This document shows, in pieces, positions 42,800-56,323 of a stretch of DNA of 64,000 nt. The number at the start of each line of letters is the position of its first letter. Position 1 is the first letter of the stretch. The position numbers and the translations under genes were made by a program. The DNA is from Desulfobacterales bacterium (GTDB lineage Bacteria > Desulfobacterota > Desulfobacteria > Desulfobacterales > JAFDDL01), in assembly GCA_034003325.1 (NCBI GenBank), contig JAVEYW010000002.1:214189-278188 (forward strand), written 5' to 3'. The notes below the pieces were generated by a model that ran no database searches, had not been told where the DNA came from, and saw nothing but the letters and a program-made list of their open reading frames with translations.

Positions 42800-43063
42800 G
42801 TGTTATTCGATTTCAAAAAAAATCGTGCATGGACGGACAATCTTCATATTTTAATGCAAATCGGGCTCACGATGGTCGGTTGCATACTGTTTTGTCTGTG
42901 GCTCGGTATCAAGCTGGACCAGTGGCTCGGCACGAAGGGCGTTTTTACTACGATTTTCATACTTCTGGGGATTGCCGGCGGCGGGGTTACCGTTTATCGG
43001 CAGATAGATGAGACGATGACATCATCTCAAAAGAAACCGGACGAACCGGACAACGAGGGGTAG
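42800..43063 (+). CDS. atpZ: AtpZ-type small membrane protein of ATP synthase operons
   Basis: 87 aa with two hydrophobic helices (ILMQIGLTMVGCILFCLWLG, VFTTIFILLGIAGGGV). It occupies the first position in the atp operon. GTG start per the ORF track. Confidence 0.7.
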   Translation: MLFDFKKNRAWTDNLHILMQIGLTMVGCILFCLWLGIKLDQWLGTKGVFTTIFILLGIAGGGVTVYRQIDETMTSSQKKPDEPDNEG

Positions 43064-43066
43064 CCG

Positions 43067-43447
43067 TTGGAATCGATTCGTCAAATACAGAAAAAGTATT
43101 GTTCCCGTGCCATTATCCTGGCGATAGTTTTAGGGTTGGGGTTTATTTTGGCCGGATATAAACCCATTGGCAAGGGGCTGATTCTCGGGACACTCTTCGG
43201 CATCCTCAATTTTATTCTGATGGGGGAAACCCTTCCCTGGCGGGTCGGCCAATCCAAAAATAAAGCCACGGCCATTTCAGCAGTTTCCATTCTTTTCCGA
43301 TACGCGTTGCTTGCCATACCGATATTTATCGGCGTCAGATTTCCCGAGTTCAATGTGGCGGCTGCGATAATCGGCATATTTATGGTTCAATTCGTTCTTC
43401 TGGGAGAACAAATTTTACGGTTGATCACACCATTGACTAAAAAATAA
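43067..43447 (+). CDS. atpI: ATP synthase protein I (AtpI)
   Basis: 126-aa hydrophobic ORF between atpZ and atpB. TTG start with GAGGGG 6 nt upstream. Confidence 0.7.
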   Translation: MESIRQIQKKYCSRAIILAIVLGLGFILAGYKPIGKGLILGTLFGILNFILMGETLPWRVGQSKNKATAISAVSILFRYALLAIPIFIGVRFPEFNVAAAIIGIFMVQFVLLGEQILRLITPLTKK

Positions 43448-43458
43448 GGGTAAGGGGC

Positions 43459-44133
43459 ATGGAGGAACTAGGCAAAATACATCAGCTGCTGATTTCCGTC
43501 GGTGGATATAAAATGACTTTCAATCTCGAGGTCATCATCATGACATGGATTGTCATTTTGGCGTTGGTTCTGTTCGGCTACATGACGACCCGAAAGCGCG
43601 GCATTCTGCCGAATCCGTTTCAGGTGGTAGGCGAGCTATTGGTTGCCAACCTGTACGGACTGGCGGACGATGCTTTGGACAAAAAACTGGCCCAAAAATA
43701 TGCGCCGATGATCTGTGCGCTATTTATGTTTCTGGTATGTTCCAACTGGTTGGGAATTATTCCCCATCTGGAGGAGCCGACCAAGGACTTGAATACGCCG
43801 TTGAGTCTCGGGTTGTTGGGCTTTGTGATTGCCCACTGGGCGGGTATTCGCGCCAAGGGATTGAAATCTTATACGAAAGCCTATTTCGAGCCGATGTTTT
43901 TCATGATGCCGCTGAATGTGATTGGTGAGCTGGCAAAGGTGGTATCGATCTCGTTCCGTCTTTTCGGAAATATCATGGGCGGTTCCATCATCATCCTGGT
44001 GGTTTCCTATCTGACTTACAGCGTGTTGCTGCCCCCGTTTTTGAACGCGTTTTTCGGCCTTTTTGTGGGTACGGTTCAGGCTTTTGTATTCACCATGCTA
44101 ACAATCGTCTACATTTCGGTTCAGGTTAATTAA
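43459..44133 (+). CDS. atpB: F0 ATP synthase subunit a
   Basis: 224 aa. Stator-Arg motif SFRLFGNIMGG. Polytopic. Confidence 0.95.
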   Translation: MEELGKIHQLLISVGGYKMTFNLEVIIMTWIVILALVLFGYMTTRKRGILPNPFQVVGELLVANLYGLADDALDKKLAQKYAPMICALFMFLVCSNWLGIIPHLEEPTKDLNTPLSLGLLGFVIAHWAGIRAKGLKSYTKAYFEPMFFMMPLNVIGELAKVVSISFRLFGNIMGGSIIILVVSYLTYSVLLPPFLNAFFGLFVGTVQAFVFTMLTIVYISVQVN

Positions 44134-44136
44134 AAA

Positions 44137-45108
44137 ATGATACAAGATATCCATGTCTGGGAAAGGCTGGCACAATTTATCGGCGCTGCCGCCGCCATGG
44201 GGTTTGGTGCCATGGGTGCCGCCATTGGTGAGGGATACGTGGCCTCCGAGGCCACCCTGGCGATTTCGAGGACTCCGGAATCCACCGGTGACATCTTTAA
44301 AACCATGCTGGTGGGGCAGGCGGTTGCCGAATCCGCCTCTATTTTTGCGTTGGTTGTTGCCATGCTGCTGCTGTTTACACCGGCGCCCACGGGCAATCTC
44401 ACCGTGGCCTTTTCGCTGCTGGCGGCCGGGCTGTGCATGGGGTTGGGCGCGATCGGCTCAGGGGTTGGGTCCGGATTTCCCGGAGCGCAAGCCTGCAAAG
44501 GCATCGGTCGCCAACCGGCGTCCATGAAGCGCTTGACCACCACCATGCTGGTAGGGTCGGCGGTATGTCAGACACCGGCCATTTTTGCATTGGTAACCTC
44601 CTTGATTTTACTCTTTTTTAATTTCAGCACGCATCCATTTTCCCCCACATGGGCCGCAATTCTCGGGGCGAGCCTGTCCATGGGGCTGGGCGCGATCGGA
44701 TCCGGCATCGGAGAGGGGCTGGTGGCCGGTGCGGGCTGTGAGGGGGTGGCCAGAAATCCATCTGAAGCCGGGCCCATTACCAACATTATGCTGCTTGGGC
44801 TTGCAGTGACCGAAACCACGGCCATTTACAGCCTTTTGATTAGTTTTATTCTGATATTCAAAGAGTTTCCGTCTACTACATTGCTTGCACCCAGCGCAGC
44901 GCTTCTGTCGGCAGGTATTTGTATGGGGCTTGGTGCGTTTGGTCCGGGCGTCGGGGAAGGCTTTGCGGGGCATAATGCGGTAAAATGGATTGCAAGAAAC
45001 GAGGATGCCCGTGGCACCCTGGTTCGAACCATGCTGGTGGGGCAGGCTGTAGCCGAGTCCACGGGCATTTATTCACTGGTTGTTGCATTGGTATTGATTT
45101 TTGTCATA
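44137..45108 (+). repeat. Four diverged tandem coding repeats of about 243 bp, one c-hairpin module each
   Basis: Approximate module boundaries are 44137-44382, 44383-44625, 44626-44868 and 44869-45108. Helix-2 DNA begins with ATGCTG in all four modules (ATGCTGGT in modules 1, 2 and 4; ATGCTGCT in module 3) but clearly diverges afterwards. Confidence 0.85.
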
Positions 45109-45111
45109 TAG
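44137..45111 (+). CDS. atpE: Fused tetra-hairpin F0 c subunit: four tandem c-subunit modules in one polypeptide
   Basis: 324 aa. Contains four copies of the pattern Gly-rich helix 1, R-x-P/N loop, then helix 2 (MLVGQAVAES / MLVGSAVCQT / MLLGLAVTET / MLVGQAVAES). The carboxylate is present at E65, E226 and E307, and is Gln at position 145. Confidence 0.9.
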   Translation: MIQDIHVWERLAQFIGAAAAMGFGAMGAAIGEGYVASEATLAISRTPESTGDIFKTMLVGQAVAESASIFALVVAMLLLFTPAPTGNLTVAFSLLAAGLCMGLGAIGSGVGSGFPGAQACKGIGRQPASMKRLTTTMLVGSAVCQTPAIFALVTSLILLFFNFSTHPFSPTWAAILGASLSMGLGAIGSGIGEGLVAGAGCEGVARNPSEAGPITNIMLLGLAVTETTAIYSLLISFILIFKEFPSTTLLAPSAALLSAGICMGLGAFGPGVGEGFAGHNAVKWIARNEDARGTLVRTMLVGQAVAESTGIYSLVVALVLIFVI

Positions 45112-45167
45112 GCTGTCGGCGGGGTTGCCGAACGGCGAAATTTAAAAAATTCTAGGAGGATCACATC

Positions 45168-45416
45168 ATGGCGATTGAAGGCGTGGACATTGTAAAAGCG
45201 GCGGCTTTTTTGGGCGCCGGTATTTCCATGGGACTGGGTGCCATCGGGCCGGGGGTTGGTGAAGGCATGGCAGCGGCAAAGGCATGCGAGGCCATTGGAA
45301 AAAATCCGAAGGAAGCAGGGCTGTTGACCCGGACCATGCTGGTAGGTCAGGCGGTATCGGAGTCCACGGGCATTTATGCGCTCGTTATTTCCCTGTTGCT
45401 CCTGTTTGTCGTCTAA
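45168..45416 (+). CDS. atpE: F0 ATP synthase subunit c (single hairpin)
   Basis: 82 aa: GAIGPGVGEG..GKNPKEA..MLVGQAVSESTGIYALV. Strong SD AGGAGG 7 nt upstream. Confidence 0.97.
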   Translation: MAIEGVDIVKAAAFLGAGISMGLGAIGPGVGEGMAAAKACEAIGKNPKEAGLLTRTMLVGQAVSESTGIYALVISLLLLFVV

Positions 45417-45452: not shown

Positions 45453-45908
45453 ATGGAAATCGTAAGCAACATTGCCCTGATCAGTATCAATGAAACCCTG
45501 ATTGTTCAGGTTGTTTCCTTTCTCATACTGGTGTTTCTTTTAAATCGGATCATGTTTCGGCCGCTTCGGCGGACCGTTGAGGAACGAGGCGCGTTGATCG
45601 ATCGAATTCGTAAGGATATCGATCAGGCGGAGCAGGCGCTGGAAACCGTATCGGCGGAGACGAAAAAAAGAGAATCGGCTATCAAGGCGGACGCTTTTGA
45701 GGTTCAGGCGAGTTTGGAAGCGAGCGCGCAGCAGGAAGCCGGCGCCGTGCTGAAAGCCACGAGCAGGGAAATGGACGCCATTCGGAAAAAGGCCGAAGAC
45801 GATGTGACGAAAATGGTCGACGCCGCCAAAGCCAATATCACCGAGGAGGCCGAGCGGCTGACCGTTTCCATCATGGAAAAGATGTTGGATCGGAGGCTGG
45901 CATCATGA
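45453..45908 (+). CDS. atpF2: F0 ATP synthase subunit b'
   Basis: 151 aa with an N-terminal TM helix (LIVQVVSFLILVFLLNRIMF) followed by a long charged helix. Confidence 0.85.
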   Translation: MEIVSNIALISINETLIVQVVSFLILVFLLNRIMFRPLRRTVEERGALIDRIRKDIDQAEQALETVSAETKKRESAIKADAFEVQASLEASAQQEAGAVLKATSREMDAIRKKAEDDVTKMVDAAKANITEEAERLTVSIMEKMLDRRLAS

Positions 45909-46492
45909 AGTCTAATCCCTATTCGCGTTATTCGAAATGTGTTGTCGCCTTGTTGGTGCTCGGCCTTCTTTTATGGGGCCAGACCGCACTGGCGTCTGAA
46001 GGCGCCGCCAGTTGGCGGGGAACCTACGATACGGCAATGAAATGGCTGAACTTTTTTATTTTGGCCTTTTTGATTGTGAAATTCGGCCGGACCCCACTGA
46101 AGAATTTTCTGGAAGGGCAAAAGGAAAATGTGGCGGTTGAAATCAAGTCGCTTGAAAATGAAAAGGCGGCGGTTCAGTCAAAGGTCGAGGAAGCCCGAAC
46201 CCTCTTAGCGCAAAGCGATATTCGGGCGGCTGAAATAAAAGAGAAAATCATTCGTCAGGCGGAGGCTGAAAAAGAACGGATGATTCAAGAGGCCATGGCG
46301 CAAAGTCGCTTGATGCTCGAAAGCGCCAAACGGCGCGTAGAGAGCAAAATCCATTTTGCCAGAGCCTCCTTTATGGCTGAACTGGTCGACATGGCTGTTG
46401 CCGCTGCCATGGAGAAGCTTCCGACGGAGATAACGCCCGAAGACGATCGTAAATATCAGGATCTTTTCATGGCGCAAGTCGAGTCCATCTGA
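45905..46492 (+). CDS. atpF: F0 ATP synthase subunit b
   Basis: 195 aa with the same architecture as b'. ATGA overlap with b'. Confidence 0.85.
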   Translation: MKSNPYSRYSKCVVALLVLGLLLWGQTALASEGAASWRGTYDTAMKWLNFFILAFLIVKFGRTPLKNFLEGQKENVAVEIKSLENEKAAVQSKVEEARTLLAQSDIRAAEIKEKIIRQAEAEKERMIQEAMAQSRLMLESAKRRVESKIHFARASFMAELVDMAVAAAMEKLPTEITPEDDRKYQDLFMAQVESI

Positions 46493-46568: not shown

Positions 46569-49154
46569 TCAGGCAGACTTAAAAACCAGCGCGCCATTCG
46601 CCTCTTCCACGGTAATTTTCATTCCTTCCCGAATTTCCCCTTTTAAAATCGCCATGGAGAGCGGATTTTCCATGTGTTTTTGAATGGCCCGCTTTAAGGG
46701 GCGCGCCCCATAAATCGGGTCATAGCCGAGTGTTGTCAGTAGTCCCAACGCATCGTCGGATAATTCAATCGTTACCTTTCGTTCGGCAAGCTTTTCACGC
46801 AATCCGGTTAGTTGAATCTCCACAATGCGACCGATCAGCTCGGGCGTGAGATTGTGAAAGATAATGGTTTCGTCGATCCGGTTTAAAAATTCCGGTTTGA
46901 AATTGGCTCGAAGCGCTTGCGTAATGCGCGCTTCCAACTCCTCGCGCCGATTTACACCCAATTCCTGAATCCACTGGCTGCCCACATTGGAGGTCATGAT
47001 AATGATGCAGTTTTTGAAGCTGACGGTGCGGCCGTGACCGTCCGTCATGCGGCCGTCATCGAGAATCTGCAGCAGCACGTTGAACACCTCCGGATGTGCT
47101 TTTTCAATCTCGTCAAAAAGCACAACCGAATAGGGGCGGCGGCGGACGGCTTCCGTCAGATATCCGCCCTCTTCATAGCCTACGTAACCCGGCGGGGCGC
47201 CGATGAGTCGCGCAACGGCATGCTTTTCCATATATTCGGACATGTCGATTCGGACAATGGCCAGCTCGCTGTCGAACAAAAACTCCGCCAGGGCCTTGGC
47301 CAGCTCGGTTTTTCCCACGCCCGTCGGGCCCATGAAGATAAAGGAGCCGATGGGCCGGTTCGGATCCTGCAATCCGGACCGGGCGCGGCGCACCGCATCG
47401 GAAACAGCGGAAATGGCCTCGCTTTGGCCGACCACGCGCTGTTCAAGCCGTTGCTCCATATGGACGAGTTTTTCCTTTTCCCCCTCCAGCATCTTGCTGA
47501 CGGGAATGCCGGTCCACCGGGAAATGACTTCGGCAATATCCTCGTCATCGACCTCTTCCTTGAGCATTTTCCGATCCGCCTGCAGTTTCAACAGCTGCTC
47601 ATTGGTCTGGTTGAGTTGCCGTTTAAGTTCTTCAAGCTTTCCGTAGCGAATCTCGGCCACCTTGGCCAGATCCCCGTTGCGCTCGGCCTGCTGGCTTTCC
47701 ATGTTCAACTGCTCGTGTGCCTGATTGATTCGACGAAGGGTCTGAATCAACTCCTTTTCATTTTGCCAATGGGCTTTCATGCCAGTGATGTCGGATTGCA
47801 TGTCGGCAATTTCTTTTTCCAGCGTTTGCAGTCTTTCCCGCGACGCCGGGTCCGTTTCTTTTTTCAGGGCTTCGCGTTCGATTTCAGCTTGAATGATTTT
47901 CCGCTGAATTTCATCGATTTCAACGGGCATGCTGTCGATTTCAATTCGCAGGCCGGAAGCACATTCATCGATCAGGTCTATGGCCTTATCCGGCAAAAAC
48001 CGGTCCGAGATGTACCGGTGCGATAATTTCGCGGCGGCCACGATGGCCGAGTCCTTGATTCTTACGCCGTGGTGAACCTCATATTTTTCCTTAAGCCCCC
48101 GAAGAATCGAGATGGTGTCCGCCACGGTGGGTTCGGTGACCAGTACCGGCTGAAACCGGCGCTCCAGGGCCGCGTCTTTTTCGATATATTTGCGATATTC
48201 GTTCAAGGTGGTGGCCCCCACGCACCGAAGTGTTCCCCGCGCCAGAGCGGGCTTTAACATATTGGAGGCGTCCATTGCGCCCTCGGCGGCGCCGGCCCCG
48301 ACCAGGGTGTGTAATTCATCAATAAACAGAATCACGTCTCCTTCGGCACGCTCTACCTCTTTTAAGACCGCTTTTAACCGATCCTCAAATTCACCCCGGT
48401 ATTTGGCGCCTGCGATGAGGGCGCCCATGTCCAGTGCGACCAGTCGGCGGTTTTTGAGTGTTTCCGACACATCACCGGCCACAATCCGTTGCGCCAACCC
48501 CTCGACGATAGCGGTTTTCCCCACCCCCGGCTCGCCGATAAGCACGGGATTGTTCTTTGTTCGCCTGGAAAGCACTTGCACGATTCGGCGAATTTCATCA
48601 TCCCGGCCGATGACCGGATCGAGCTTCCCCAGCCGGGCCAAATCGGTCAGATCCCGGCTGAACTTATCCAACGCCTGGTATTTTTCTTCCGGGTTGGGGT
48701 CTGTGATTCGCTGTGAGCCCCTGAGCGTCATCAATACCTTTAAAATCGATTCGGACCCAATGCCGTTTCGGTTTAAAATGGCGGCGGCGTCTCCTTCTTT
48801 TTCATTCGATAGGGCGAGCAGCACATGCTCGATGCTGACATACTCATCTTTCATGTTGGCCGCCTGGGCAAAGGCTTTATCCAAAACGTCCTTTGCCCGC
48901 TTGGATAAATAAACGTCATCCATGCCACCGCTGATTTTCGGAAATCGAGCCAAGGCCAGGTTGACTTCCTGCAATACGACACCGGGGGACACGCCGAGTT
49001 TGCGGCAAACGCCGATGGCGATGCCCTCCTTTTCCTCCAACATCGCCGCCAGCAGATGCTCCGGCTCGATTTGCTGGTGCCCTCTGGTTGAGGCCAGAGA
49101 TTGGGCGTTGCTGAGCAATTCCTGAGCTTTTATGGTTAATTTATCAAAGCGCAT
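46569..49154 (-). CDS. clpB: ATP-dependent chaperone ClpB
   Basis: 861 aa. Two AAA+ modules ([18 protein letters not shown]) with a middle coiled-coil domain. Confidence 0.97.
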
Positions 49155-49690
49155 ATTTTCTTCCCCCTATAAAAACCATCTGTTTTAATTGATAGAAAAA
49201 TAAACACGCCGCCGTTGTTGTCAATCCGAAGTCACCGGGTGCAATAAAAGCCAGTCCCCTTTACACTTTCTGAAAATCACCGTACCCGGGTGGCAAACCC
49301 GGAAAGAAACGAATGGATAACCGCTTTCCGATTTGGGACTAACCTTTCTTTTCATATACCATAACCGCGCGTTAGATTCAGGAAAAACGGCTTCGAATGA
49401 CTTTTTGCTTGACAACTATCTAAATTTGAAAGAGATTTAACGAAAAAGCCCGTTAAACAGAAGCGGCAATACGGTAGTGTGAGCGATATGACTTGCTATC
49501 GGTTGCACAGCACATGACCATCGGCGGCGGCCCGCGTTAACTGACGTCCCGATTGTCTTCCTTCGCCCTAATTTCATCGCAGCACAAGCACCCATAAACA
49601 GGACGCATGATCGTTGTGTAGCACCCTATGAACAGGCCGATGCACCATGGATTATTCTTTCACCAATTAAACCATAAGGGGGGAGAGCCT

Positions 49691-51613
49691 ATGAGACGCA
49701 AGTCCATGAACCCGTTTTGCCGGCGGAAACGACCTGCCGGCCATTTATTGTGGGGCCTTGCCGTGATGTTCTTATTGGTTTCACCGGCGGCGGGGTTTCA
49801 GTTTAATGCCGGAGACATGCAGGGCAGCCTGGACACCACGCTTTCCTATGGCCTAAGTTGGCGTGTGGCGGAGAGGGACGAGGAGATTGTCGGTCTGGCC
49901 AACGGTGGCAAGGCATACTCCGTCAATGGGGATGACGGCAATCTTAATTTCGGAAGAGAAATTTTCAGCAATGCCGTAAAAGCGACTTCGGAGTTGGACC
50001 TTAAGTACAAAAACGTTGGTGTGTTCGTCAGAGGCTCCGGGTTTTACGATTTTGAGTACAAGGACGGCAACAGGGATCACATAGATCTGACCGACGAGGC
50101 CTTGGACCTGGTCGGTTCGGATGTGCGACTGCTGGATGCCTATTTCTCCGCAGGCTTTGATTTGCTGGGCAGACCCGTTGAGTTTCGAATCGGCGAGCAG
50201 CTCGTCAGTTGGGGAGAGAGCACCTTTTTTCAGAACAGCATCAACACCATCAACCCCGTGGATGTCAGCGCCATTCGTTTGCCCGGCGCGGAGCTTAAAG
50301 AAGCGCTGCTGCCCGAAGGCATGATTTACGCCGCCATCGGCTTGAGCGAGATGATCTCGGTAGAGGGCTTTTATCTCTATGACTGGGATAACACGGATAT
50401 TGACCCGCCCGGCTCCTATTTCAGCACCAGCGATTTTGCCGGTGACGGCGGCAGCCGCGTGATGCTGGGGTGGGGAAGGGTGTGGGAGTTCGGGACGAAT
50501 TTGGGACCGCTGGGATTTGATCCGGATTTTCTGGCGGTCGGCAGAGCGGCCGATCAGGATGCGGACGATGACGGCCAGTTCGGCGTCGCACTTCGTTTGT
50601 TTACACCGATGCTGGCGGATGCGGAGTTCGGCTTTTACTTTATGAATTATCATAGCCGGGTTCCCGTGATCAGTGCTCAAACCGGAACGGTGGCCGGGGT
50701 CGACTTATCCTCCTCAGCCGCATTCGGTGCCAGGGTCGCCAATTTGACGGCGGCGGGTTTCCCCTACGCCACGGCTGTTTCCACCGCCGCAAGCCTGTCT
50801 GTCGATGCCTATTCCCAAACGGCCCGGTATTTTCTGGAGTATCCGGAAGATATTCAACTCTTCGGCGTCAGCTTCAACACGGATCTTGGCACCTCCGGCA
50901 TCGCGTTGCAGGGGGAAGTCTCCCATCGCCGGGATGTTCCGTTGCAGGTGGATGATATTGAGTTGCTGCTTGCGGCCCTCTCACCCATCGGATTTAACCC
51001 CGCCTATAAAGATAACCAACTGAGAGTGTTCGGTGCCGACGAGACCATTCACGGGTATATCGAAAAGGACATCACCCAGGTGCAAGCCACTGCAACCAAG
51101 GCTTTCGGGCCGACCCTTCGGGCGAACACCTTTATTTTGGTGGGAGAAGTCGGCTGGACGCATGTTCACAACATGCCCGATAAGGACGAGCTGCGGCTGG
51201 AATCTTCCGGCACCTACACCAGCGGAAACGCTTCTCAAAGTATTCTGCCGGGAACAGACCCCACGAAACCCTTCGGCGGCGCGCACGCCGGAATTGCCAG
51301 CGAGCCCTCCGACAACTTTGCGGATCAGGATTCCTGGGGATATCGAATCGCGGGCCGGCTGGAGTACAGCAACGCCGTTGGTCCCGTCGGCTTGACGCCG
51401 CATTTTGCCTGGCAGCACGATGTGCAGGGAAACAGCCCCGGTCCGGGCGGCAATTTCCTTGAGGGGAGAAAAGCGGTTACCTTGGGACTGACCGCCGGTT
51501 ATCTGACGAACCTGACCATGGATATCAGTTATACGTGCTTTTTCGGCGGCAGCCGATACAACCTGATCAATGACCGCGATTTTATCGGGGCCAATATCAA
51601 GTACTCATTCTGA
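49691..51613 (+). CDS. DUF1302-family predicted outer-membrane beta-barrel protein
   Basis: Signal peptide, then FQFNAGDMQGSLDTTLSYGLSWRV and a C-terminal aromatic residue (..IKYSF). The ORF track starts at 49628; ATG 49691 has the SD GGGGGGAGAG. Confidence 0.8.
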   Translation: MRRKSMNPFCRRKRPAGHLLWGLAVMFLLVSPAAGFQFNAGDMQGSLDTTLSYGLSWRVAERDEEIVGLANGGKAYSVNGDDGNLNFGREIFSNAVKATSELDLKYKNVGVFVRGSGFYDFEYKDGNRDHIDLTDEALDLVGSDVRLLDAYFSAGFDLLGRPVEFRIGEQLVSWGESTFFQNSINTINPVDVSAIRLPGAELKEALLPEGMIYAAIGLSEMISVEGFYLYDWDNTDIDPPGSYFSTSDFAGDGGSRVMLGWGRVWEFGTNLGPLGFDPDFLAVGRAADQDADDDGQFGVALRLFTPMLADAEFGFYFMNYHSRVPVISAQTGTVAGVDLSSSAAFGARVANLTAAGFPYATAVSTAASLSVDAYSQTARYFLEYPEDIQLFGVSFNTDLGTSGIALQGEVSHRRDVPLQVDDIELLLAALSPIGFNPAYKDNQLRVFGADETIHGYIEKDITQVQATATKAFGPTLRANTFILVGEVGWTHVHNMPDKDELRLESSGTYTSGNASQSILPGTDPTKPFGGAHAGIASEPSDNFADQDSWGYRIAGRLEYSNAVGPVGLTPHFAWQHDVQGNSPGPGGNFLEGRKAVTLGLTAGYLTNLTMDISYTCFFGGSRYNLINDRDFIGANIKYSF

Positions 51614-51630
51614 AAAAAGGGGAGGATGTT

Positions 51631-52992
51631 ATGGTTAAAAATGTTTTTATTTGTTTCAGTCTTTCCCTGCTGCTCGCTGTCGGCGCCTCGGTGGCCGTGG
51701 GCAAGCTGTCTATCGAGGAGATTGATCGGCTGGGCAAGGAGTTGACCCCGCTGGGGGGTGAAATGGCGGGAAATCAAGACGGCACGATTCCGCCCTGGAC
51801 CGGCGGCATCACGCAGCCACCCGAAGGGTATACGATCGGCATGCATCATCCCGACCCCTATGCAGCGGATACCGTTCTTTTTACGATTACCGCCGCCAAT
51901 ATGAATCAGTATAAAGACAAGCTCACGCCCGGTCACCAGGCCATGCTGCAACTCTATGACACCTTTAAACTCAACGTTTATCCGACCCACCGCAGCGCGG
52001 CCGTCCCTCAGCGCATCTATGAGGCCACAAAAAAAGTGGCGGCCACGGCCGAGATCGTCAACAACGGGGACGGCGTTCAAGGCACCGTGATCGGCATTCC
52101 CTTTCCCATTCCCAAACAAGGGGTTGAAGTCATCTGGAATCATTTGGTTCGGTACCGGGGAGAGATCGCACTCAGACTGTTCGCGCAGGCCGCGCCGACC
52201 CGAAACGGCCAATACACGCTGGTTCAATTTGAAGATGAGTTCGATTTGCTGTATTGCCATGTGGGGATGACCGAAGAAGGGCTCAATAATCGGATTGCTT
52301 ATTTCAAGCAGACGGTTACCGCACCGGCCCGACTCGCCGGGGGCATTCTTCTTGTGTATGAAACCCTCAACCAGGTCAAAGAACCCCGAAAAGCCTGGCT
52401 TTACAACCCGGGCCAACGCCGTGTCCGGCGGGCGCCCAATGTGGCCTACGACAATCCCGGAACCGCTTCGGACGGCGTTCGGACCAGCGATCAATTCGAC
52501 ATGTTCAATGGTGCTCCGGACCGGTATAATTGGCAATTGGTCGGAAAAAAAGAGATCTATGTGCCGTATAATTCCTATCAGCTTCACAGTGACAAGCTGA
52601 AATACAAGGATATTTTGACCCCATTGCACATCAACCCCGATTATTGCCGCTACGAACTTCACCGGGTGTGGGTGGTGGACGCCACGCTAAAGGACGGTGC
52701 CCGTCATCTTTATAAACGCCGCACCTTTTATGTGGACGAAGATTCCTGGCAGGTGCTCTTGGTCGATATCTATGATAACCGGGATCAGTTGTGGCGGGTT
52801 TCGGAAGGCCATGTCATCAATTATTACGAAAAACCCACCCTCTGGACGACACTTGAAGTGCACACGGATCTTCAATCGGGGCGCTATCTGGCCATCGGCC
52901 TGGACAATGAAAGCAGTATGTACGACTTTAATATTCAGCGAACGGCTGAAGATTATGTGCCTGCCGCATTGAGGCGGGAAGGCAAACGCTGA
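51631..52992 (+). CDS. DUF1329-family periplasmic/lipoprotein-sorting-like protein
   Basis: 453 aa. Signal peptide. GTIPPWTGG is the characteristic N-terminal motif as I recall it. It is always paired with DUF1302. Confidence 0.8.
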   Translation: MVKNVFICFSLSLLLAVGASVAVGKLSIEEIDRLGKELTPLGGEMAGNQDGTIPPWTGGITQPPEGYTIGMHHPDPYAADTVLFTITAANMNQYKDKLTPGHQAMLQLYDTFKLNVYPTHRSAAVPQRIYEATKKVAATAEIVNNGDGVQGTVIGIPFPIPKQGVEVIWNHLVRYRGEIALRLFAQAAPTRNGQYTLVQFEDEFDLLYCHVGMTEEGLNNRIAYFKQTVTAPARLAGGILLVYETLNQVKEPRKAWLYNPGQRRVRRAPNVAYDNPGTASDGVRTSDQFDMFNGAPDRYNWQLVGKKEIYVPYNSYQLHSDKLKYKDILTPLHINPDYCRYELHRVWVVDATLKDGARHLYKRRTFYVDEDSWQVLLVDIYDNRDQLWRVSEGHVINYYEKPTLWTTLEVHTDLQSGRYLAIGLDNESSMYDFNIQRTAEDYVPAALRREGKR

Positions 52993-53966
52993 TGCGCGTC
53001 ATGACCTGTCGGCGGATTCAATGGCTGTTGTATGCCGGTGTAGCCCTGACCATGATCTGGGGCGACCCGGCAGCGGCCCTTGAATCTGAATCCGAATCCG
53101 CTGAGATCATGCCCCTTGCCGCCCGATCCCTGCTGCTCGACGGCGTTATGCTGAAAAGCGGCCGGTGCGTGGTTGTGGGCGAGCGGGGGCATATTCTCTA
53201 TTCGGATGATCAGGGGGAAAGCTGGCATCAGGTGGCAGTTCCCACTCGGGCCACCCTCACGAGCGTTGCCTTTCATGATGATGCCACGGGCTGGGCCGCC
53301 GGTCACGATGCCGTGATTTTGATGACCCGTGACGGTGCAAAAACATGGGAAAAACTGCGTGACGCCCCGAAGGAAGAAAAACCCATTTTGGATTTATGGT
53401 GCGTTGATAGCCAAAACGGGTTTGCCGTCGGCGCCTATGGCTTGTTTCTTCAAACGAATGACGGGGGAAACACCTGGCGGCCGCACGTCATTATTGAAGA
53501 AGATCGCCATTTAAATCAGGTGGCTGCCGCATCAAATGGCAAATTCTATATCGCCGCCGAAGCCGGCCTGGCCTTGCGTTCCGTGGATGCCGGCCAAACC
53601 TGGCAGGATATCCGTGCCCCCTATGAAGGCTCTTTTTTCGGCCTGTTGCCCCTTGCCCATGACACGGTTTTGTTGTTCGGCTTGCGGGGGCATCTCTTTC
53701 GGTCCGAAGATGCCGGGGACGCGTGGGAAAAAATCGAGACCGGCACGGAAGCGATGCTCAACGCGGGCGTTCGGCTTTCAGACGGCCGGATCGTGATTGC
53801 GGGAAATGAAGGGACGCTGATCGTCAGCCGGGATGAGGGCCTTAGTTTCACCCTGCACCCGCAGGCGGACCGAAAAGGGATCTCTTGCCTTGTGCCGACG
53901 CAGGACAACCACCTGTTGTTGTTTGGCGAAGGCGGCGCTAAGAAGATTCCCGTCACCTTCGATTGA
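52992..53966 (+). CDS. BNR/Asp-box repeat beta-propeller protein (Ycf48-like)
   Basis: Six Asp-box-like repeats: SDDQGESW, TRDGAKTW, TNDGGNTW, SVDAGQTW, SEDAGDAW, SRDEGLSF. TGATG overlap with the upstream gene. Confidence 0.85.
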   Translation: MRVMTCRRIQWLLYAGVALTMIWGDPAAALESESESAEIMPLAARSLLLDGVMLKSGRCVVVGERGHILYSDDQGESWHQVAVPTRATLTSVAFHDDATGWAAGHDAVILMTRDGAKTWEKLRDAPKEEKPILDLWCVDSQNGFAVGAYGLFLQTNDGGNTWRPHVIIEEDRHLNQVAAASNGKFYIAAEAGLALRSVDAGQTWQDIRAPYEGSFFGLLPLAHDTVLLFGLRGHLFRSEDAGDAWEKIETGTEAMLNAGVRLSDGRIVIAGNEGTLIVSRDEGLSFTLHPQADRKGISCLVPTQDNHLLLFGEGGAKKIPVTFD

Positions 53967-53998
53967 TACCATGAGTGTCCGTTCATTAAGGAACCAGC

Positions 53999-56323
53999 AT
54001 GCATTTTTCCTTTTCCGTTTCGCGCCTTGAAACGTTCATTTTTGCTCATCGCCCATGGGTCATCGGCTTTTTTCTTGCCGTCACCCTGGTAATGGCCTAC
54101 TTTGCCTTTCAGCTGCGGGTGGATGCCGGATTCAGCAAACTTTTGCCGCTGCAACACGAATATATGAAAACCTACATGATGCATCGGCAGGAATTCGGCG
54201 GAGCGAACCGGGTGCTCATCGCATGCATGGTAAAAAAAGGCGATATTTTCACTCAGTCGTTTTTTGCGCTTTTTAAAGACGCTACCGATGAAGTCTTTTT
54301 TATTCCGGGCGTCGATCGGGCGCAGGTGTATTCCATCTTTACGCCCAATGTCCGGTTTACGGAGGTGGTGGAAGACGGCATTTCGGGCGGAAATGTGGTT
54401 CCTGATGATTTTCGCCCCACTCCGGAAGGGTTGGCCACCGTCCGAAAGAATATGCTCAAGGCCAATATCGTGGGAAGGCTGGTCGCCAATGATTTTTCGG
54501 GCGCCATTATCTCCGCCCAGCTTCTTGAGATCAATCCGAACACGGGCGAGAAGCTCAATTACATCGATGTCGCGCACGAGTTGGAGGAAAAGCTGCGAGC
54601 CAAATTCGAAGCCCGCGACGAGAATGTCACGGTTCACATCATCGGGTTTGCCAAGGTGATTGGGGATATATCCGACGGCGCCGGCCGCGTGGTGCTCTTT
54701 TTTGCTGTCAGCTTCATCATCACCGCCCTGTTGGTGTTTTTCTATACGCAATCCGTTAAACTGACGATCATTCCCCTGGCGGCATCCTTGATGGCCGTGG
54801 TGTGGCAGCTTGGCATGGTAACGGTGTTGGGTTTCGGCATGGATCCCATGGGAATCCTGGTGCCGTTTCTTATCTTTGCCATCGGCGTCAGCCACGGGGT
54901 TCAAATGGTCGGCGCCGTCCAGGCCGAGCTTTTTGACGGGGTCACCGGCTTTGATGCAGCGCGTAAAAGCTTTCGGCGGCTTCTGGTGCCGGGCGGCATC
55001 GCCCTGGCCAGCGATACGCTTGGGTTTATCACCATTTTGTTGATCACGGTTCAGATTATTCAGGAACTTGCCATTACGGCTAGCCTGGGCGTGGCGGCGA
55101 TCATCTTTACCAACCTGATACTGATTCCGGTGCTGCTTTCCTATCTTACCTTTAACGCCCGGTACATCGAGAAATTGGCGGCGCGCACTGCGCATTTGCG
55201 GCTGTTATGGCGCGGCTTGGCCCATGTCACCCATCCGCAGGTGACGCTGCTCGTGCTGGTGATTGCAGGAGGGTTTCTTGTTTATGGTCTTTTTAAGGCC
55301 AACAGCGTTCAAATCGGAGATCTTCACAGCGGTGTTCCGGAGCTGCGGGCCAATTCGCAATATAACCTCGACAGCCGGATTATCAGTGAAAAATTCTCCA
55401 TCGGCGTGGACATGATTTCGGTGATTGTGGAAACCGCCCCGGAAGGCTGCATTGATTATGACATCATGACCCTGATCGATCGATTTGCCTGGCATATGCA
55501 AAATGTGCCCGGCGTTCAATCGGTCGTATCTTTGCCGCAACTTGCCAAAACGATCAACGCCGGGTGGAACGAGGGCAGCATGAAATGGCGCATTCTGCCG
55601 CGCAATCGGGATGTGATGGTTCAGGCGGTCGCCTATGTGCCCACGAGCAGCGGCCTGTTGAACACGGACGGCTCCGTGATGCCGGTCATGATCTTCACCC
55701 GGGACCACCGGGCTCAAACCATTTCCGGAATCGTGTCCGCGGTTAAATCCTTTCGGACTCAACATGGCACGGAAAAAGTACGGTTCAGACTTGCGACCGG
55801 CAATGTCGGTGTCATGGCGGCCACCAATGAAGAGGTTGCGGCCTCTCAGTTTCCGATCCTGATGTACCTTTTTTCCGCTATTATTTTACTGTGCCTGGTG
55901 ACCTTTCGGTCGGTTCGGGCGACGCTGTGTATTGTTCTACCGCTGGGGCTGGTTTCCATTCTGGCTTATGCGCTGATGAGCGCGCTTGAGATCGGGCTGA
56001 AGGTGTCCACGCTGCCCGTGGTGGCCCTGGGTGTCGGCATCGGTGTGGATTACGGCATCTACATTTACAACCGCCTGGAAAGCATTCTGATAACCGGGGA
56101 ACCCCTTGAGGAGGCCTTTCATCGCACCCTTCAAATTACGGGCGTCGGGGTGCTCTTCACCGGCCTGACGTTGGGCATCGGCGTGGCCACCTGGATTTTT
56201 TCCCCGCTGAAATTTCAGGCGGATATGGGCATTCTTTTGACCTTCATGTTCCTGGTCAATATGTTGGGCGCCATTTTTCTGTTGCCGGCCCTGGCCCGCG
56301 TACTGTTGCCGTCAAAACAATAA
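53999..56323 (+). CDS. RND-superfamily transporter (MMPL/HpnN-like)
   Basis: 774 aa, organised as two blocks of one TM helix, a periplasmic loop, then five TM helices. Confidence 0.85.
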   Translation: MHFSFSVSRLETFIFAHRPWVIGFFLAVTLVMAYFAFQLRVDAGFSKLLPLQHEYMKTYMMHRQEFGGANRVLIACMVKKGDIFTQSFFALFKDATDEVFFIPGVDRAQVYSIFTPNVRFTEVVEDGISGGNVVPDDFRPTPEGLATVRKNMLKANIVGRLVANDFSGAIISAQLLEINPNTGEKLNYIDVAHELEEKLRAKFEARDENVTVHIIGFAKVIGDISDGAGRVVLFFAVSFIITALLVFFYTQSVKLTIIPLAASLMAVVWQLGMVTVLGFGMDPMGILVPFLIFAIGVSHGVQMVGAVQAELFDGVTGFDAARKSFRRLLVPGGIALASDTLGFITILLITVQIIQELAITASLGVAAIIFTNLILIPVLLSYLTFNARYIEKLAARTAHLRLLWRGLAHVTHPQVTLLVLVIAGGFLVYGLFKANSVQIGDLHSGVPELRANSQYNLDSRIISEKFSIGVDMISVIVETAPEGCIDYDIMTLIDRFAWHMQNVPGVQSVVSLPQLAKTINAGWNEGSMKWRILPRNRDVMVQAVAYVPTSSGLLNTDGSVMPVMIFTRDHRAQTISGIVSAVKSFRTQHGTEKVRFRLATGNVGVMAATNEEVAASQFPILMYLFSAIILLCLVTFRSVRATLCIVLPLGLVSILAYALMSALEIGLKVSTLPVVALGVGIGVDYGIYIYNRLESILITGEPLEEAFHRTLQITGVGVLFTGLTLGIGVATWIFSPLKFQADMGILLTFMFLVNMLGAIFLLPALARVLLPSKQ

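What the first reader, a model, noticed from the sequence alone, without database searches (positions are those of the whole stretch)
44137..45111. Four c-subunit hairpins fused into one 324-aa F-type ATP synthase rotor protein
Seen in sequence: one uninterrupted 324-codon ORF lies between atpB (a subunit) and a normal 82-codon atpE. Its translation is four tandem modules of 80-81 residues, each a complete c-subunit hairpin.
- Helix 1: MGFGAMGAAIGEG / MGLGAIGSGVGSG / MGLGAIGSGIGEG / MGLGAFGPGVGEG.
- Polar loop: SRTPE / GRQPA / ARNPS / ARNED.
- Helix 2: MLVGQAVAESASIF / MLVGSAVCQTPAIF / MLLGLAVTETTAIY / MLVGQAVAESTGIY.
The ion-binding carboxylate is kept at E65, E226 and E307 but is Gln at residue 145. 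The four modules are clearly diverged at the DNA level, so this is an old fusion and not a recent tandem duplication or an assembly collapse.
Established knowledge: bacterial F-type c subunits are single hairpins of about 70-90 aa. Acetobacterium woodii c1 is a two-hairpin exception with one binding site. Archaeal A-type proteolipids exist with 2, 3 and, in Methanopyrus, 13 fused hairpins.
Inference: this would be an eight-helix proteolipid that fixes the stoichiometry and order of four rotor positions. I know of no described four-hairpin F-type c subunit, but that reflects the limit of my knowledge and was not checked against any database.
Basis: partly seen in the sequence, partly recalled or inferred. 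Interest (0 to 1): 0.92.

Follow-up and report, generated by a model that had tools for sequence, protein, structure and literature searches.

The report
Four-hairpin ATP synthase rotor subunit
A sulfate-reducing bacterium encodes an ATP-synthase rotor protein made of four fused copies of the usual two-helix hairpin, one of which cannot bind ions; I found no description of this design, which recurs with 3 to 6 hairpins across hundreds of marine sulfate reducers and probably sets how many sodium ions the motor moves per ATP.

Summary
Window 44137-45111 (+) is one uninterrupted 324-codon ORF with four PF00137 hairpins, carboxylate pattern E65/Q145/E226/E307. It lies in an Fo-only cluster: atpZ-atpI-a-c4-c(82 aa)-b'-b. 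It is not an artefact. The same c4 plus monomer-c pair occurs in all 80 best species-level genomes, including cultured Desulfosarcina, Desulfatibacillum and Desulfonema. All four hairpins are under purifying selection.

c5 and c6 versions arose by repeated duplication of the ion-blind hairpin 2, and most members keep only one or two carboxylates. The residues that build each site co-vary between neighbouring hairpins, as expected for adjacent positions in a ring.

The closest solved relative is the two-hairpin c1 of the Acetobacterium woodii hybrid rotor, but the fusion here arose independently.

The monomer c carries the complete two-carboxylate Na+ motif.

Published proteomics imply that c4-bearing species have a second, canonical Fo and express both.

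Best reading: c4 is a fixed block of a heteromeric Na+ rotor ring that lowers the ion/ATP ratio. Ring composition and direction of operation are untested.

Ten literature searches found no description of bacterial F-type c subunits with three or more hairpins.

The parts
42800..43063 (+). atpZ-like small membrane protein (PF09527 ATPase_gene1), first gene of the Fo-only cluster
   Evidence: Pfam E 2.8e-17. It is conserved as the first gene in 65+ related loci.
43067..43447 (+). atpI (PF03899), assembly factor
   Evidence: Pfam E 3e-10. Synteny is conserved.
43459..44133 (+). atpB, F-type subunit a (224 aa), with the conserved Arg in ...SFRLFGN...
   Evidence: PF00119 E 5.2e-49. The best PDB matches are F-type a subunits. 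It is only 28.5% identical to the canonical a (a1) of L085, while L085's two a subunits are about 33% identical to each other.
44137..45111 (+). c4: 324-aa four-hairpin c subunit. It starts 3 nt after the stop of subunit a and has only a weak Shine-Dalgarno match.
   Evidence: The gap from a to cN is 0-4 nt in 76 of 78 loci. The SD match is 4 nt or less in 59 of 80.
44137..44379 (+). Hairpin 1 (aa 1-81): live site (E32 + E65). It offers S66, A67 and F70 to the next, dead site.
   Evidence: The signature 'E|ESA..F' is found in 76 of 79 species loci.
44380..44622 (+). Hairpin 2 (aa 82-162): ion-blind (S112 in helix 1, Q145 in helix 2). It donates T146, P147 and F150. This is the unit duplicated in c5 and c6.
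   Evidence: Q145 is invariant in alignment A1.
44623..44865 (+). Hairpin 3 (aa 163-243): E193 + E226 retained here (minority state). Most orthologues have Gly + Gln. The neighbouring donors (T-P-F) lack Thr67 and Tyr70, so the site is incomplete.
44866..45111 (+). Hairpin 4 (aa 244-324, plus stop): complete two-carboxylate Na+ motif E274 / E307-S-T-x-x-Y.
   Evidence: The motif definition comes from PMC3692424 and the ProAD rule.
45154..45159 (+). Strong Shine-Dalgarno (AGGAGG) 8 nt upstream of the monomer c start
   Evidence: Sequence read. The SD match is 6 nt or more in 61 of 74 loci for monomer c.
45168..45416 (+). atpE, monomeric c (82 aa) with the full Na+ motif E|EST..Y
   Evidence: PF00137 E 1e-18. 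The motif is identical in 73 of 73 related loci.
45453..45908 (+). b' (PF00430)
   Evidence: synteny.
45905..46492 (+). b (PF00430). The cluster ends here: clpB converges on the minus strand (46569-49154) and no F1 genes follow.

Best explanation
c4 is a rotor proteolipid of a complete, separate Fo module of the Na+-binding type (a, c4, c, b', b, plus AtpZ and AtpI). I propose that one copy of c4 co-assembles with several copies of the 82-aa c into a single heteromeric ring, as the two-hairpin c1 does with c2/c3 in Acetobacterium woodii.

Because the four hairpins are covalently linked, c4 places a fixed block in the ring: live site, blind site (Gln145), a partly degraded site (Glu226), live site. 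The blind position stays neutral, so it can pass both the lipid and the a-subunit arginine without carrying an ion. The ring therefore moves fewer ions per turn than it has hairpins, which lowers the ion/ATP ratio.

Across the family this 'gear' has been changed stepwise, by converting Glu to Gln (E-Q-E-E, then E-Q-Q-E, then E-Q-Q-Q) and by duplicating the blind hairpin (c4, then c5, then c6).

Shown here:
- the fusion and its conservation;
- purifying selection on all four hairpins;
- the site-by-site covariation between neighbouring hairpins;
- the Na+ motif;
- the Fo-only context;
- the contrast in translation signals between c4 and monomer c.

Inferred:
- co-assembly in one ring, and a single c4 per ring;
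- Na+ as the coupling ion;
- the resulting ion/ATP ratio;
- sharing of one F1 with the canonical Fo.
For: 1. Same gene order as the A. woodii / C. aceticum hybrid-rotor operons (a, multi-hairpin c, monomer c, b). The best PDB match is A. woodii c1 (4bem_J, E 6.7e-29; Foldseek rank 1).

2. c4 and monomer c are inseparable. They occur together in 73 of 79 loci, and the other six lie near contig ends. The c5 and c6 loci have the same order.

3. Covariation in 216 distinct multi-hairpin proteins. When site n keeps Glu, hairpin n-1 has Tyr70 in 115 of 128 cases. When site n is dead, it has Tyr70 in 1 of 635. An acidic or Gln residue in helix 1 accompanies Glu65 in 327 of 343 cases, against 0 of 636. 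This is the geometry of inter-subunit Na+ sites in a ring.

4. Dead hairpins are as constrained as live ones: dN/dS is 0.087-0.110 for all four.

5. cN starts 0-4 nt after the stop of subunit a (one copy per complex) and has a weak SD. Monomer c has AGGAGG.

6. Monomer c and hairpin 4 carry the F. nucleatum two-carboxylate Na+ motif.

7. AlphaFold2 predicts a confident packed four-hairpin model.

8. Proteomics of cultured c4-type species lists the cluster's proteins among constitutive proteins.
Against: - No biochemical or structural data exist for any member. Ring composition, ring size and c4 copy number are unknown.
- In engineered Bacillus PS3 c10, a single E56Q abolished ATP synthesis (Mitome 2004, as cited in PMC8809890). 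Runs of 2-5 blind hairpins in relatives are therefore hard to reconcile with synthesis.
- A separate four-hairpin family (P0323, locus L084) follows subunit a with no monomer c. Four-hairpin proteins can therefore apparently form rings alone.
- The covariation counts are inflated by shared ancestry.
- Na+ specificity rests on motifs only.
- The window's own third site breaks the covariation rule: Glu is present but the donors are T-P-F.
- I could not show that the window's genome itself holds a second Fo or where its F1 genes are.
Confidence: 0.6

Rival explanations
1. c4 forms a homo-oligomeric ring on its own, for example three copies giving 12 hairpins and 9-10 sites. The monomer c would build a different ring population, so the cluster would yield two rotor types rather than one hybrid ring.
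For: A distinct four-hairpin family (P0323, L084; pattern E-Q-E-D) sits directly after an F-type a with no monomer c gene. Single polypeptides with 7, 8, 13 and 15 hairpins also exist. These show that multi-hairpin proteins can supply most or all of a ring.
Against: The pairing with a strongly translated monomer c is strict in the c3, c4, c5 and c6 loci. cN has weak translation signals and is coupled to the single-copy subunit a. The last hairpin always offers S-T-x-x-Y to a following live site, even when it is itself dead in c5 and c6 ('N|QST..Y'). That fits a live monomer c, or hairpin 1 of another cN, as neighbour, so this point is not decisive. The A. woodii precedent is a hybrid ring.
Confidence: 0.15
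2. The module is a dedicated ATP-driven Na+ extrusion pump and not an ATP synthase. It would take F1 from the shared pool, and the low ion/ATP ratio would let it build a steep Na+ gradient, like a V-ATPase. This concerns the direction of operation and is compatible with a hybrid ring.
For: Cultured species with this cluster also have a separate canonical set. D. variabilis has b'-b-delta-alpha-gamma-beta-epsilon plus AtpB2. D. limicola has AtpE1. D. multivorans has AtpB2 and AtpE1. L085 has an H+-type a/c set next to the c3 module. D. oleovorans has a duplicated ectopic Fo (PMC4154653). Most relatives keep only 1-2 sites in 4-6 hairpins, and a single E-to-Q kills synthesis in an engineered ring. 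Named c5 sources include Desulfosalsimonas and Desulfatitalea alkaliphila, which I recall to be halophilic or alkaliphilic (own knowledge, not checked). A c5 locus lies next to Mrp-type antiporter genes.
Against: The window's variant has only one clearly blind site, like A. woodii, whose enzyme synthesises ATP at low driving force (PMC9171764). An A-type enzyme with a V-type c also synthesises ATP (same paper). The cluster's proteins are constitutive under all growth conditions tested, which suits a housekeeping energy converter as well as a pump.
Confidence: 0.3
3. c4 is not a rotating element. It would be a degenerate paralogue acting as an assembly scaffold, a regulator, or a stator-side partial ring.
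For: Many hairpins in the family have lost the carboxylate. AtpI and AtpZ assembly factors are encoded alongside.
Against: All hairpins keep the glycine-rich helix-1 packing motif and the R-x-P loop that contacts the central stalk in hairpins 1-3. Hairpin 1, and usually the last hairpin, keep full sites. The covariation follows ring geometry. Purifying selection is strong. The A. woodii precedent is a rotor subunit.
Confidence: 0.05
4. Artefact: four adjacent c genes were merged by sequencing or assembly error, or a tandem repeat was collapsed.
For: None was found. The window comes from a metagenome-assembled genome.
Against: The modules are only 44-53% identical in DNA. The same uninterrupted 322-325-aa ORF occurs in 80 species-level genomes, including complete chromosomes (NZ_CP159846.1, OY771548.1). 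The linkers are conserved. dN/dS is about 0.1.
Confidence: 0.01

Closest known systems
Acetobacterium woodii (and Clostridium aceticum) F1Fo Na+ ATP synthase hybrid rotor: c1 (two hairpins, one Glu and one Gln) plus c2/c3 monomers, at 1:9 in A. woodii
   Same: Both are F-type operons with the order a, multi-hairpin c, monomer c, b. Both have a Glu-to-Gln loss in one hairpin and a Na+ motif. Both show the same donor logic: the hairpin before a dead site ends in ...F, and the one before a live site ends in ...Y. A. woodii c1 is the best sequence and fold match in the PDB.
   Different: There are four hairpins here (3-6 in the family) instead of two, and relatives have up to five consecutive blind sites. 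Helix 1 carries Glu (two-carboxylate type) instead of Gln. The cluster is Fo-only, detached from F1, and in cultured relatives is additional to a canonical Fo. The origin is independent: c4 hairpins are 51-64% identical to the local monomer c but 36-49% to A. woodii c1.
Fusobacterium nucleatum c11 ring (two-carboxylate Na+ motif) and Ilyobacter tartaricus c11
   Same: The monomer c and hairpin 4 carry E32/E65/S66/T67/Y70, exactly as in F. nucleatum. These rings are the second and third best PDB sequence matches.
   Different: Those rings are homomeric, built from single hairpins with every site live.
Archaeal A-type and eukaryotic V-type proteolipids with multiplied hairpins (2, 3 or 13 hairpins; reduced number of sites)
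   Same: The principle is the same: covalently multiplied hairpins with fewer carboxylates than hairpins (PMC9171764). V-type c subunits are the next-best structural matches.
   Different: The genomic context here is F-type: PF00119 a, PF00430 b and b', AtpI and AtpZ. V-type K models score below their cut-offs. Each hairpin resembles bacterial F-type c.
Engineered genetically fused c subunits of Bacillus PS3 (c2...c10; Mitome et al.)
   Same: Hairpins joined by short periplasmic linkers still form a working ring (PMC8809890). This shows the topology is feasible.
   Different: Those constructs are artificial, and a single E56Q abolished ATP synthesis. Nature here conserves one to five Gln positions.

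Membership tests
F-type ATP synthase subunit c (PF00137 / TIGR01260) | Two-helix hairpin with a Gly-rich helix 1 and a polar R-x-P loop | tested here: met
   Four PF00137 stretches. The loops are SRTPE, GRQPA, ARNPS and ARNED. AlphaFold2 predicts four hairpins.
F-type ATP synthase subunit c (PF00137 / TIGR01260) | Ion-binding carboxylate in the middle of helix 2 | tested here: inconclusive
   Present in hairpins 1, 3 and 4 (E65, E226, E307). Replaced by Gln145 in hairpin 2.
F-type ATP synthase subunit c (PF00137 / TIGR01260) | Encoded in an atp cluster next to F-type a and b | tested here: met
   Order atpZ-atpI-a-c4-c-b'-b, conserved in 65+ loci.
F-type ATP synthase subunit c (PF00137 / TIGR01260) | Single hairpin of about 70-90 aa | tested here: not met
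   324 aa with four hairpins.
A. woodii-type F/V hybrid rotor subunit c1 | Multi-hairpin c encoded between a and a monomeric c in an F-type operon | tested here: met
   Compare C. aceticum and A. woodii operon descriptions.
A. woodii-type F/V hybrid rotor subunit c1 | At least one hairpin with the carboxylate replaced by Gln, others intact | tested here: met
   Q145. A. woodii c1 reads AETSGIF / AQTTGIY.
A. woodii-type F/V hybrid rotor subunit c1 | Exactly two hairpins (V-type-like, four helices) | tested here: not met
   Four hairpins here; 3, 5 and 6 in relatives.
A. woodii-type F/V hybrid rotor subunit c1 | Common descent with A. woodii c1 | tested here: not met
   c4 hairpins are closest to the local monomer c (51-64%), against 36-49% to A. 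woodii c1 hairpins. The two A. woodii hairpins are 60% identical to each other and to Fusobacteria-type c.
A. woodii-type F/V hybrid rotor subunit c1 | Physically assembled with monomer c in one ring, about one copy per ring | not testable with these tools
   Only indirect support: strict gene pairing, translation signals and ring-geometry covariation.
Na+-coupled c ring (Mulkidjanian / ProAD motif) | [Q/E]32 ... E65-[S/T]66-[S/T/Q]67-x-x-Y70, with donor residues from the preceding hairpin | tested here: met
   Monomer c and hairpin 4 read E|EST..Y. The rule is and the structure basis. Site 3 of the window protein is incomplete, with donors T-P-F. This is sequence evidence only.
V/A-type proteolipid (subunit K/c) | Encoded with V/A-type subunits, and reaches V-type K model cut-offs | tested here: not met
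   The neighbours are F-type. NF004913 scores 125 bits against a cut-off of 211, and other V-type K models are also below cut-off.
N-ATPase c subunit (TIGR03322) | Operon beta-epsilon-Q-R-a-c-b-alpha-gamma, no delta; c reaches the model cut-off | tested here: not met
   c4 reaches 189 bits against a cut-off of 130.85, but only by summing four hairpins. The monomer c scores 70.5. The operon structure is absent and no F1 genes lie nearby. The N-ATPase gene order is described.

The most novel reading that the evidence does not exclude
Desulfobacterales are described as the dominant complete-oxidising sulfate reducers of marine sediments (PMC11887813). In this reading they run two interchangeable membrane motors on one F1 head. 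One is a canonical H+ Fo. The other is a Na+ Fo whose rotor contains a covalently fused block of 3-6 hairpins.

Evolution would have used this block as a gearbox. It would lower the ion/ATP ratio in unit steps by silencing sites and by duplicating an ion-blind hairpin. Up to five consecutive blind positions would still rotate productively, although a single blind position kills an engineered ring.

If the rings have 11 hairpins, as the closest solved Na+ rings do, the series would run from about 3.3 Na+/ATP in this window to about 2.0 in c6 species.
Probability: 0.35. Interest if true: 0.9.

Novelty: new variant of a known kind. Interest (0 to 1): 0.78.

Why it matters
The number of ion-binding sites per rotor turn fixes the ion/ATP ratio, a central parameter of bioenergetics. 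Until now it was thought to vary in bacterial F-type enzymes mainly through ring size, with A. woodii's single blind site as a curiosity.

Here a second, independent and far more extreme version of that trick appears in an ecologically dominant group living near the thermodynamic limit. The natural series c3, c4, c5, c6, with patterns from E-Q-E to E-Q-Q-Q-Q-Q, amounts to a set of ready-made coupling-ratio mutants.

Cultured hosts exist (Desulfosarcina variabilis, Desulfonema limicola, Desulfatibacillum alkenivorans) and published proteomes are available. Several questions therefore become directly testable:
- Can an Fo motor pass long ion-blind arcs?
- Does a cell switch or mix H+ and Na+ Fo sectors on one F1?
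- How do sulfate reducers budget ATP?

There is also an annotation lesson. These proteins are labelled simply 'ATP synthase F0 subunit C'. They were removed by a length filter in at least one large c-ring survey. They can also spuriously pass the N-ATPase c model.

Tried and rejected
- **Regex hairpin parsing.** A regular expression for hairpins failed. I replaced it with an HMM built from the five modules.
- **F1 genes near the cluster.** Walker-A and DELSEED motifs for F1 alpha and beta gave no hit in the window or within 10 kb in any of the 80 loci. Pfam on 20 further window ORFs found only housekeeping genes.
- **A second Fo in the window's own genome.** This could not be tested. Searching with a canonical a subunit returned only unnamed or MAG proteins, with no link to c4 genomes. 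The question was answered only for cultured relatives, through a published proteome table.
- **Literature.** All ten full-text searches and targeted reads of genome and proteome papers on Desulfobacteraceae found no mention of multi-hairpin F-type c subunits. Brandt & Mueller 2015 and Matthies 2014 are not held.
- **Discriminating the two a types by PDB comparison.** Both a types simply match generic F-type a subunits, so this said nothing about Na+ versus H+.
- **Rejected: V/A-type origin.** The context and model scores do not fit.
- **Rejected: N-ATPase.** The operon structure is wrong.
- **Rejected: recent tandem duplication or assembly collapse.** The divergence, the conservation and the dN/dS values exclude it.
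- **Ring size from the AlphaFold model.** I could not derive it because the model coordinates are not exposed.
Full report
**1.
Window 44137-45111 (+) is a single 324-codon ORF. Pfam finds four non-overlapping PF00137 (ATP-synt_C) stretches, E 1.8e-62. NCBIfam F-type c equivalogs also match four times. Aligning the four 80-81-residue modules with the downstream 82-aa c gives 35-46% identity between modules in protein and 44-53% in DNA. Identity to the monomer is 46-56%. The carboxylate column reads E65, Q145, E226, E307, confirmed at codon level. AlphaFold2, run with an alignment of 17 orthologues, gives eight long helices in four hairpins joined by 7-8-residue linkers, with mean pLDDT 92.5 and pTM 0.90.

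**2. Context.**
The ORF sits in a cluster of atpZ-like (PF09527), atpI, a (PF00119), c4, c (82 aa), b' and b (both PF00430). The cluster ends at a convergent clpB. No F1 alpha or beta signature occurs anywhere in the 64-kb window, and other ORFs are housekeeping genes. c4 starts 3 nt after the stop codon of subunit a and has no good Shine-Dalgarno. The monomer c has AGGAGG 8 nt upstream of its start.

**3. Not an artefact, and not unique.**
The protein is identical to NCBI MDX9785760.1, from a Desulfobacterales MAG, where it is labelled only 'ATP synthase F0 subunit C'. A scan of one genome per GTDB species found 459 loci encoding a relative of the query. The 80 best all carry an uninterrupted 322-325-aa four-hairpin ORF. 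They include Desulfosarcina variabilis (complete genome), D. cetonica, Desulfatibacillum alkenivorans, Desulfonema limicola and an Olavius symbiont.

In 73 of 79 loci a monomeric c follows; the other six lie near contig ends. The full order atpZ-atpI-a-c4-c-b'-b is seen in 65 loci. No F1 genes lie within 10 kb of any of them. Each hairpin position has its own conserved signature across orthologues. dN/dS is 0.087-0.110 for all four hairpins, blind or live; dS is near saturation, so the values are approximate.

**4. A family with graded numbers of hairpins and sites.**
A hairpin HMM applied to the hits shows proteins with 4, 5 and 6 hairpins (about 324, 405 and 485 aa).

| Hairpins | Carboxylate patterns |
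|---|---|
| 4 | E-Q-Q-E 37, E-Q-E-E 2 |
| 5 | E-Q-Q-Q-Q 76, E-Q-Q-Q-E 7 |
| 6 | E-Q-Q-Q-Q-Q 13, E-Q-Q-Q-Q-E 3 |

Among the species-level c4 loci plus the window, the counts are E-Q-Q-E 62, E-Q-Q-Q 10 and E-Q-E-E 8. The window's pattern is therefore the minority.

The c5 and c6 loci have the same gene order, including the 82-aa c. Hairpin-by-hairpin comparison shows c5 = h1-h2-h2'-h3-h4 and c6 = h1-h2-h2'-h2''-h3-h4. This is serial duplication of the blind hairpin 2. A three-hairpin relative (E-Q-E) also exists. In a crude NJ tree the E-Q-E-E forms sit on several deep branches; the window groups with D. cetonica. E-Q-Q-Q forms one clade. This is compatible with progressive site loss.

**5. The sites behave like ring sites.**
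In Na+ rings the ion is held by residue 32 and Glu65 of one hairpin and by Ser66, Thr67 and Tyr70 of the neighbour. This is established for F. nucleatum and I. tartaricus (PMC3692424) and is the ProAD rule for multi-hairpin subunits.

I tabulated this in 216 distinct multi-hairpin proteins:

| Condition | Count when site is live | Count when site is dead |
|---|---|---|
| Preceding hairpin has Tyr70 | 115 of 128 | 1 of 635 |
| Same hairpin has E/D/Q at position 32 | 327 of 343 | 0 of 636 |

Relatedness inflates the statistics, but the pattern is qualitative and recurs on different branches. Whole sites were dismantled together, across the boundary between consecutive hairpins. This is what is expected if consecutive hairpins are neighbours in a ring.

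The monomer c reads E|EST..Y in 73 of 73 loci, and hairpin 4 of the window protein reads the same. This is the complete two-carboxylate Na+ motif of F. nucleatum.

The window's hairpin 3 is one of the 13 exceptions. It keeps E193 and E226, but hairpin 2 offers T146-P147-F150. D. cetonica-type E-Q-E-E proteins offer T-T-Y instead. Its third site is probably weakened. I cannot say whether it binds Na+, H+ or nothing.

**6. Closest known system.**
The best PDB sequence hit is the two-hairpin c1 of the Acetobacterium woodii F-type Na+ ATP synthase (4bem_J, E 6.7e-29). It is followed by the Na+ c11 rings of F. nucleatum and I. tartaricus. Foldseek also ranks 4bem_J first, then V-ATPase c subunits. 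No solved chain covers more than two of the four hairpins (TM-score normalised to the query is at most 0.45).

A. woodii builds a ring of nine c2/3 and one c1, and its enzyme synthesises ATP at low driving force (PMC9171764). C. aceticum has the same arrangement, which is interpreted as a reduced Na+/ATP stoichiometry (PMC7911925). The gene order (a, multi-hairpin c, monomer c, b) and the Glu/Gln logic are the same here.

The origin is not the same. Each c4 hairpin is closest to its own genome's monomer c (51-64%) and only 36-49% identical to A. woodii c1 hairpins. The two A. woodii hairpins resemble each other and Fusobacteria-type c at about 60%. This is therefore convergent evolution of a hybrid-rotor subunit, and it has been carried much further.

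**7. A second Fo.**
[quoted passage not shown] On contig L085 a canonical atpZ-atpI-a-c set lies next to a Rex-like regulator and then the atpZ-atpI-a-c3-c-b'-b module. Its c is H+-type (M|EAL..Y). Its a subunit is 28-33% identical to the cN-linked a subunits of L085 and the window.

The constitutive-proteome tables of Woehlbrand et al. 2025 list proteins detected under all growth conditions (PMC11887813, Data S1):
- D. variabilis: b'-b-delta-alpha-gamma-beta-epsilon (Dvar_17060-17120), AtpB2 (Dvar_58660), and a further b/b' pair (Dvar_84160/84170). That pair lies at the chromosome position of the c4 locus L015.
- D. limicola: AtpE1 (dnl_00800), plus the adjacent AtpE2/AtpE3 (dnl_03850/03860) next to b (dnl_03830).
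- D. multivorans: AtpB1-AtpE3-...-b'-b (Dmul_C05830-05790), plus AtpB2 and AtpE1.

Matching these locus tags to cN rests on gene order, so it is an inference. If it is right, c4-bearing species have two Fo sets and express both constitutively. The paper does not comment on the unusual c subunit. Whether the window's own genome has a canonical Fo was not testable here.

**8. Mechanism proposed.**
c4 is a rotor block that co-assembles with monomer c. Its Gln position stays neutral and passes the a/c interface without carrying an ion, which lowers the ion/ATP ratio.

The closest solved Na+ rings have 11 hairpins. If the rings here do too, and each contains one cN, the predicted ratios are as follows. 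This is inference only.

| Protein | Sites | Na+/ATP |
|---|---|---|
| Window c4 (E-Q-E-E) | 10 | about 3.3 |
| c4 E-Q-Q-E | 9 | 3.0 |
| c5 E-Q-Q-Q-Q | 7 | 2.3 |
| c6 E-Q-Q-Q-Q-Q | 6 | 2.0 |

The tight coupling of cN translation to single-copy subunit a, against the strong SD of monomer c, fits a low cN-to-c ratio.

The main difficulty is experimental precedent. A single E56Q in a fused Bacillus PS3 c10 abolished ATP synthesis (cited in PMC8809890). Long blind arcs may therefore work only in the ATP-driven direction. In that case the module, at least in c5 and c6 species, would be a low-ratio Na+ pump. With a single clearly blind site, the window's variant is the one most like A. woodii and could plausibly synthesise ATP.

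**9. Novelty.**
The genes are in public databases under a generic name. The ProAD paper states that c/K variants may have 'two or more' hairpins, but illustrates only one and two. A large c-ring survey discarded sequences longer than 250 aa. None of ten full-text searches, and none of the genome or proteome papers on the host group, describes a bacterial F-type c with three or more hairpins. The library omits most subscription journals, and the most relevant review could not be read, so an earlier mention cannot be excluded. I class this as a new variant of a known kind, the hybrid F-type rotor.

**10. Wider sequence space.**
An exhaustive search of 1.84 billion cluster representatives found 94 representatives at E <= 1e-30. 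Proteins with 2, 3, 4, 5, 6, 7, 8, 13 and 15 hairpins are present. They include:
- a second, diverse four-hairpin family with pattern E-Q-E-D, which follows an F-type a with no monomer c;
- a 7-hairpin protein from Gracilibacteria;
- a 15-hairpin, all-Glu protein from Asgard archaea.

Multiplied proteolipids therefore appear to be much commonly encoded than the papers I could read convey.

Noticed in passing
L084 8001-8957 (protein P0323 = NCBI MBT3828056.1, '[bacterium]'): A second, unrelated-looking family of four-hairpin c proteins (312-322 aa, 27-33% identical to the window protein, pattern E-Q-E-D or E-Q-E-E). The gene overlaps the end of an F-type a gene, no monomer c gene follows, and two unannotated proteins of about 200 aa come next. 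It has many clusters at 50% identity.
   Followed up: partly
P0153 (1139 aa), P0172 (968 aa), P0266 (784 aa), P0220 (631 aa), P0200 (524 aa): Giant proteolipids with every carboxylate kept. There are 15 hairpins in Promethearchaeota/Hodarchaeota (Asgard) MAGs, 13 in an unnamed lineage, 8 in two proteins (P0220 and P0266, representatives of separate 50% clusters) and 7 in Gracilibacteria. They may be whole or half rotor rings in one polypeptide.
   Followed up: partly
L085 3678-10070: Two Fo gene sets lie side by side on one contig. A canonical H+-type atpZ-atpI-a-c (the c has an N-terminal extension, 137 aa) is followed by a Rex-like redox-sensing regulator (PF06971 + CoA_binding) and then the Na+-motif atpZ-atpI-a-c3-c-b'-b. 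The regulator between them hints at redox control of the choice of Fo.
   Followed up: partly
L082 1-4290 (minus strand), upstream of a c5 cluster: A Mrp/Mnh-type multisubunit Na+/H+ antiporter operon (PF00361, MnhB, MbhD, MnhG, MrpF, MNHE) lies about 2.3 kb from the c5 Fo cluster. This is consistent with a link to Na+ cycling.
   Followed up: no
window 44623-44865 (hairpin 3 of c4): The window's third site keeps both carboxylates (E193, E226), but its donor hairpin offers T-P-F instead of T-T-Y. It is one of only 13 exceptions to the covariation rule, against 115 conforming cases. It may be a site caught in the process of being lost, or one with altered ion preference.
   Followed up: partly
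window 44137-45108, NCBIfam TIGR03322: The N-ATPase c model (an 'exception' type) scores 189 bits against a cut-off of 130.85, only because four hairpins add up. The true monomer scores 70.5. Multi-hairpin c proteins can thus be mis-assigned by whole-protein cut-offs.
   Followed up: yes
PMC11887813 Data S1 (Dmul_C05800, Dvar_84170): [quoted passage not shown] Several F0 subunits are also labelled with Greek letters. These are likely misnomers.
   Followed up: no
L014 and L025 (both MAG CSMAG_469, JAUVKB01): Two different c4 loci fall in one MAG (contigs with coverage about 254x and about 20x). This is probably a mixed bin of two populations rather than two copies in one genome.
   Followed up: no
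window 9682-11667 (-): A Kef-type cation/H+ exchanger (PF00999 Na_H_Exchanger) fused to TrkA-N and TrkA-C regulatory domains.
   Followed up: no
window 49628-56323 (+): A DUF1302 - DUF1329 (LolA-like) - 324-aa ORF - MMPL/RND-like transporter cluster lies downstream of clpB. The DUF1302 and DUF1329 proteins have no annotated function.
   Followed up: no
window 1963-4935 (-): A 989-aa protein combines a response-regulator receiver domain with a PPDK_N (PEP-utilising, ATP-binding) domain.
   Followed up: no
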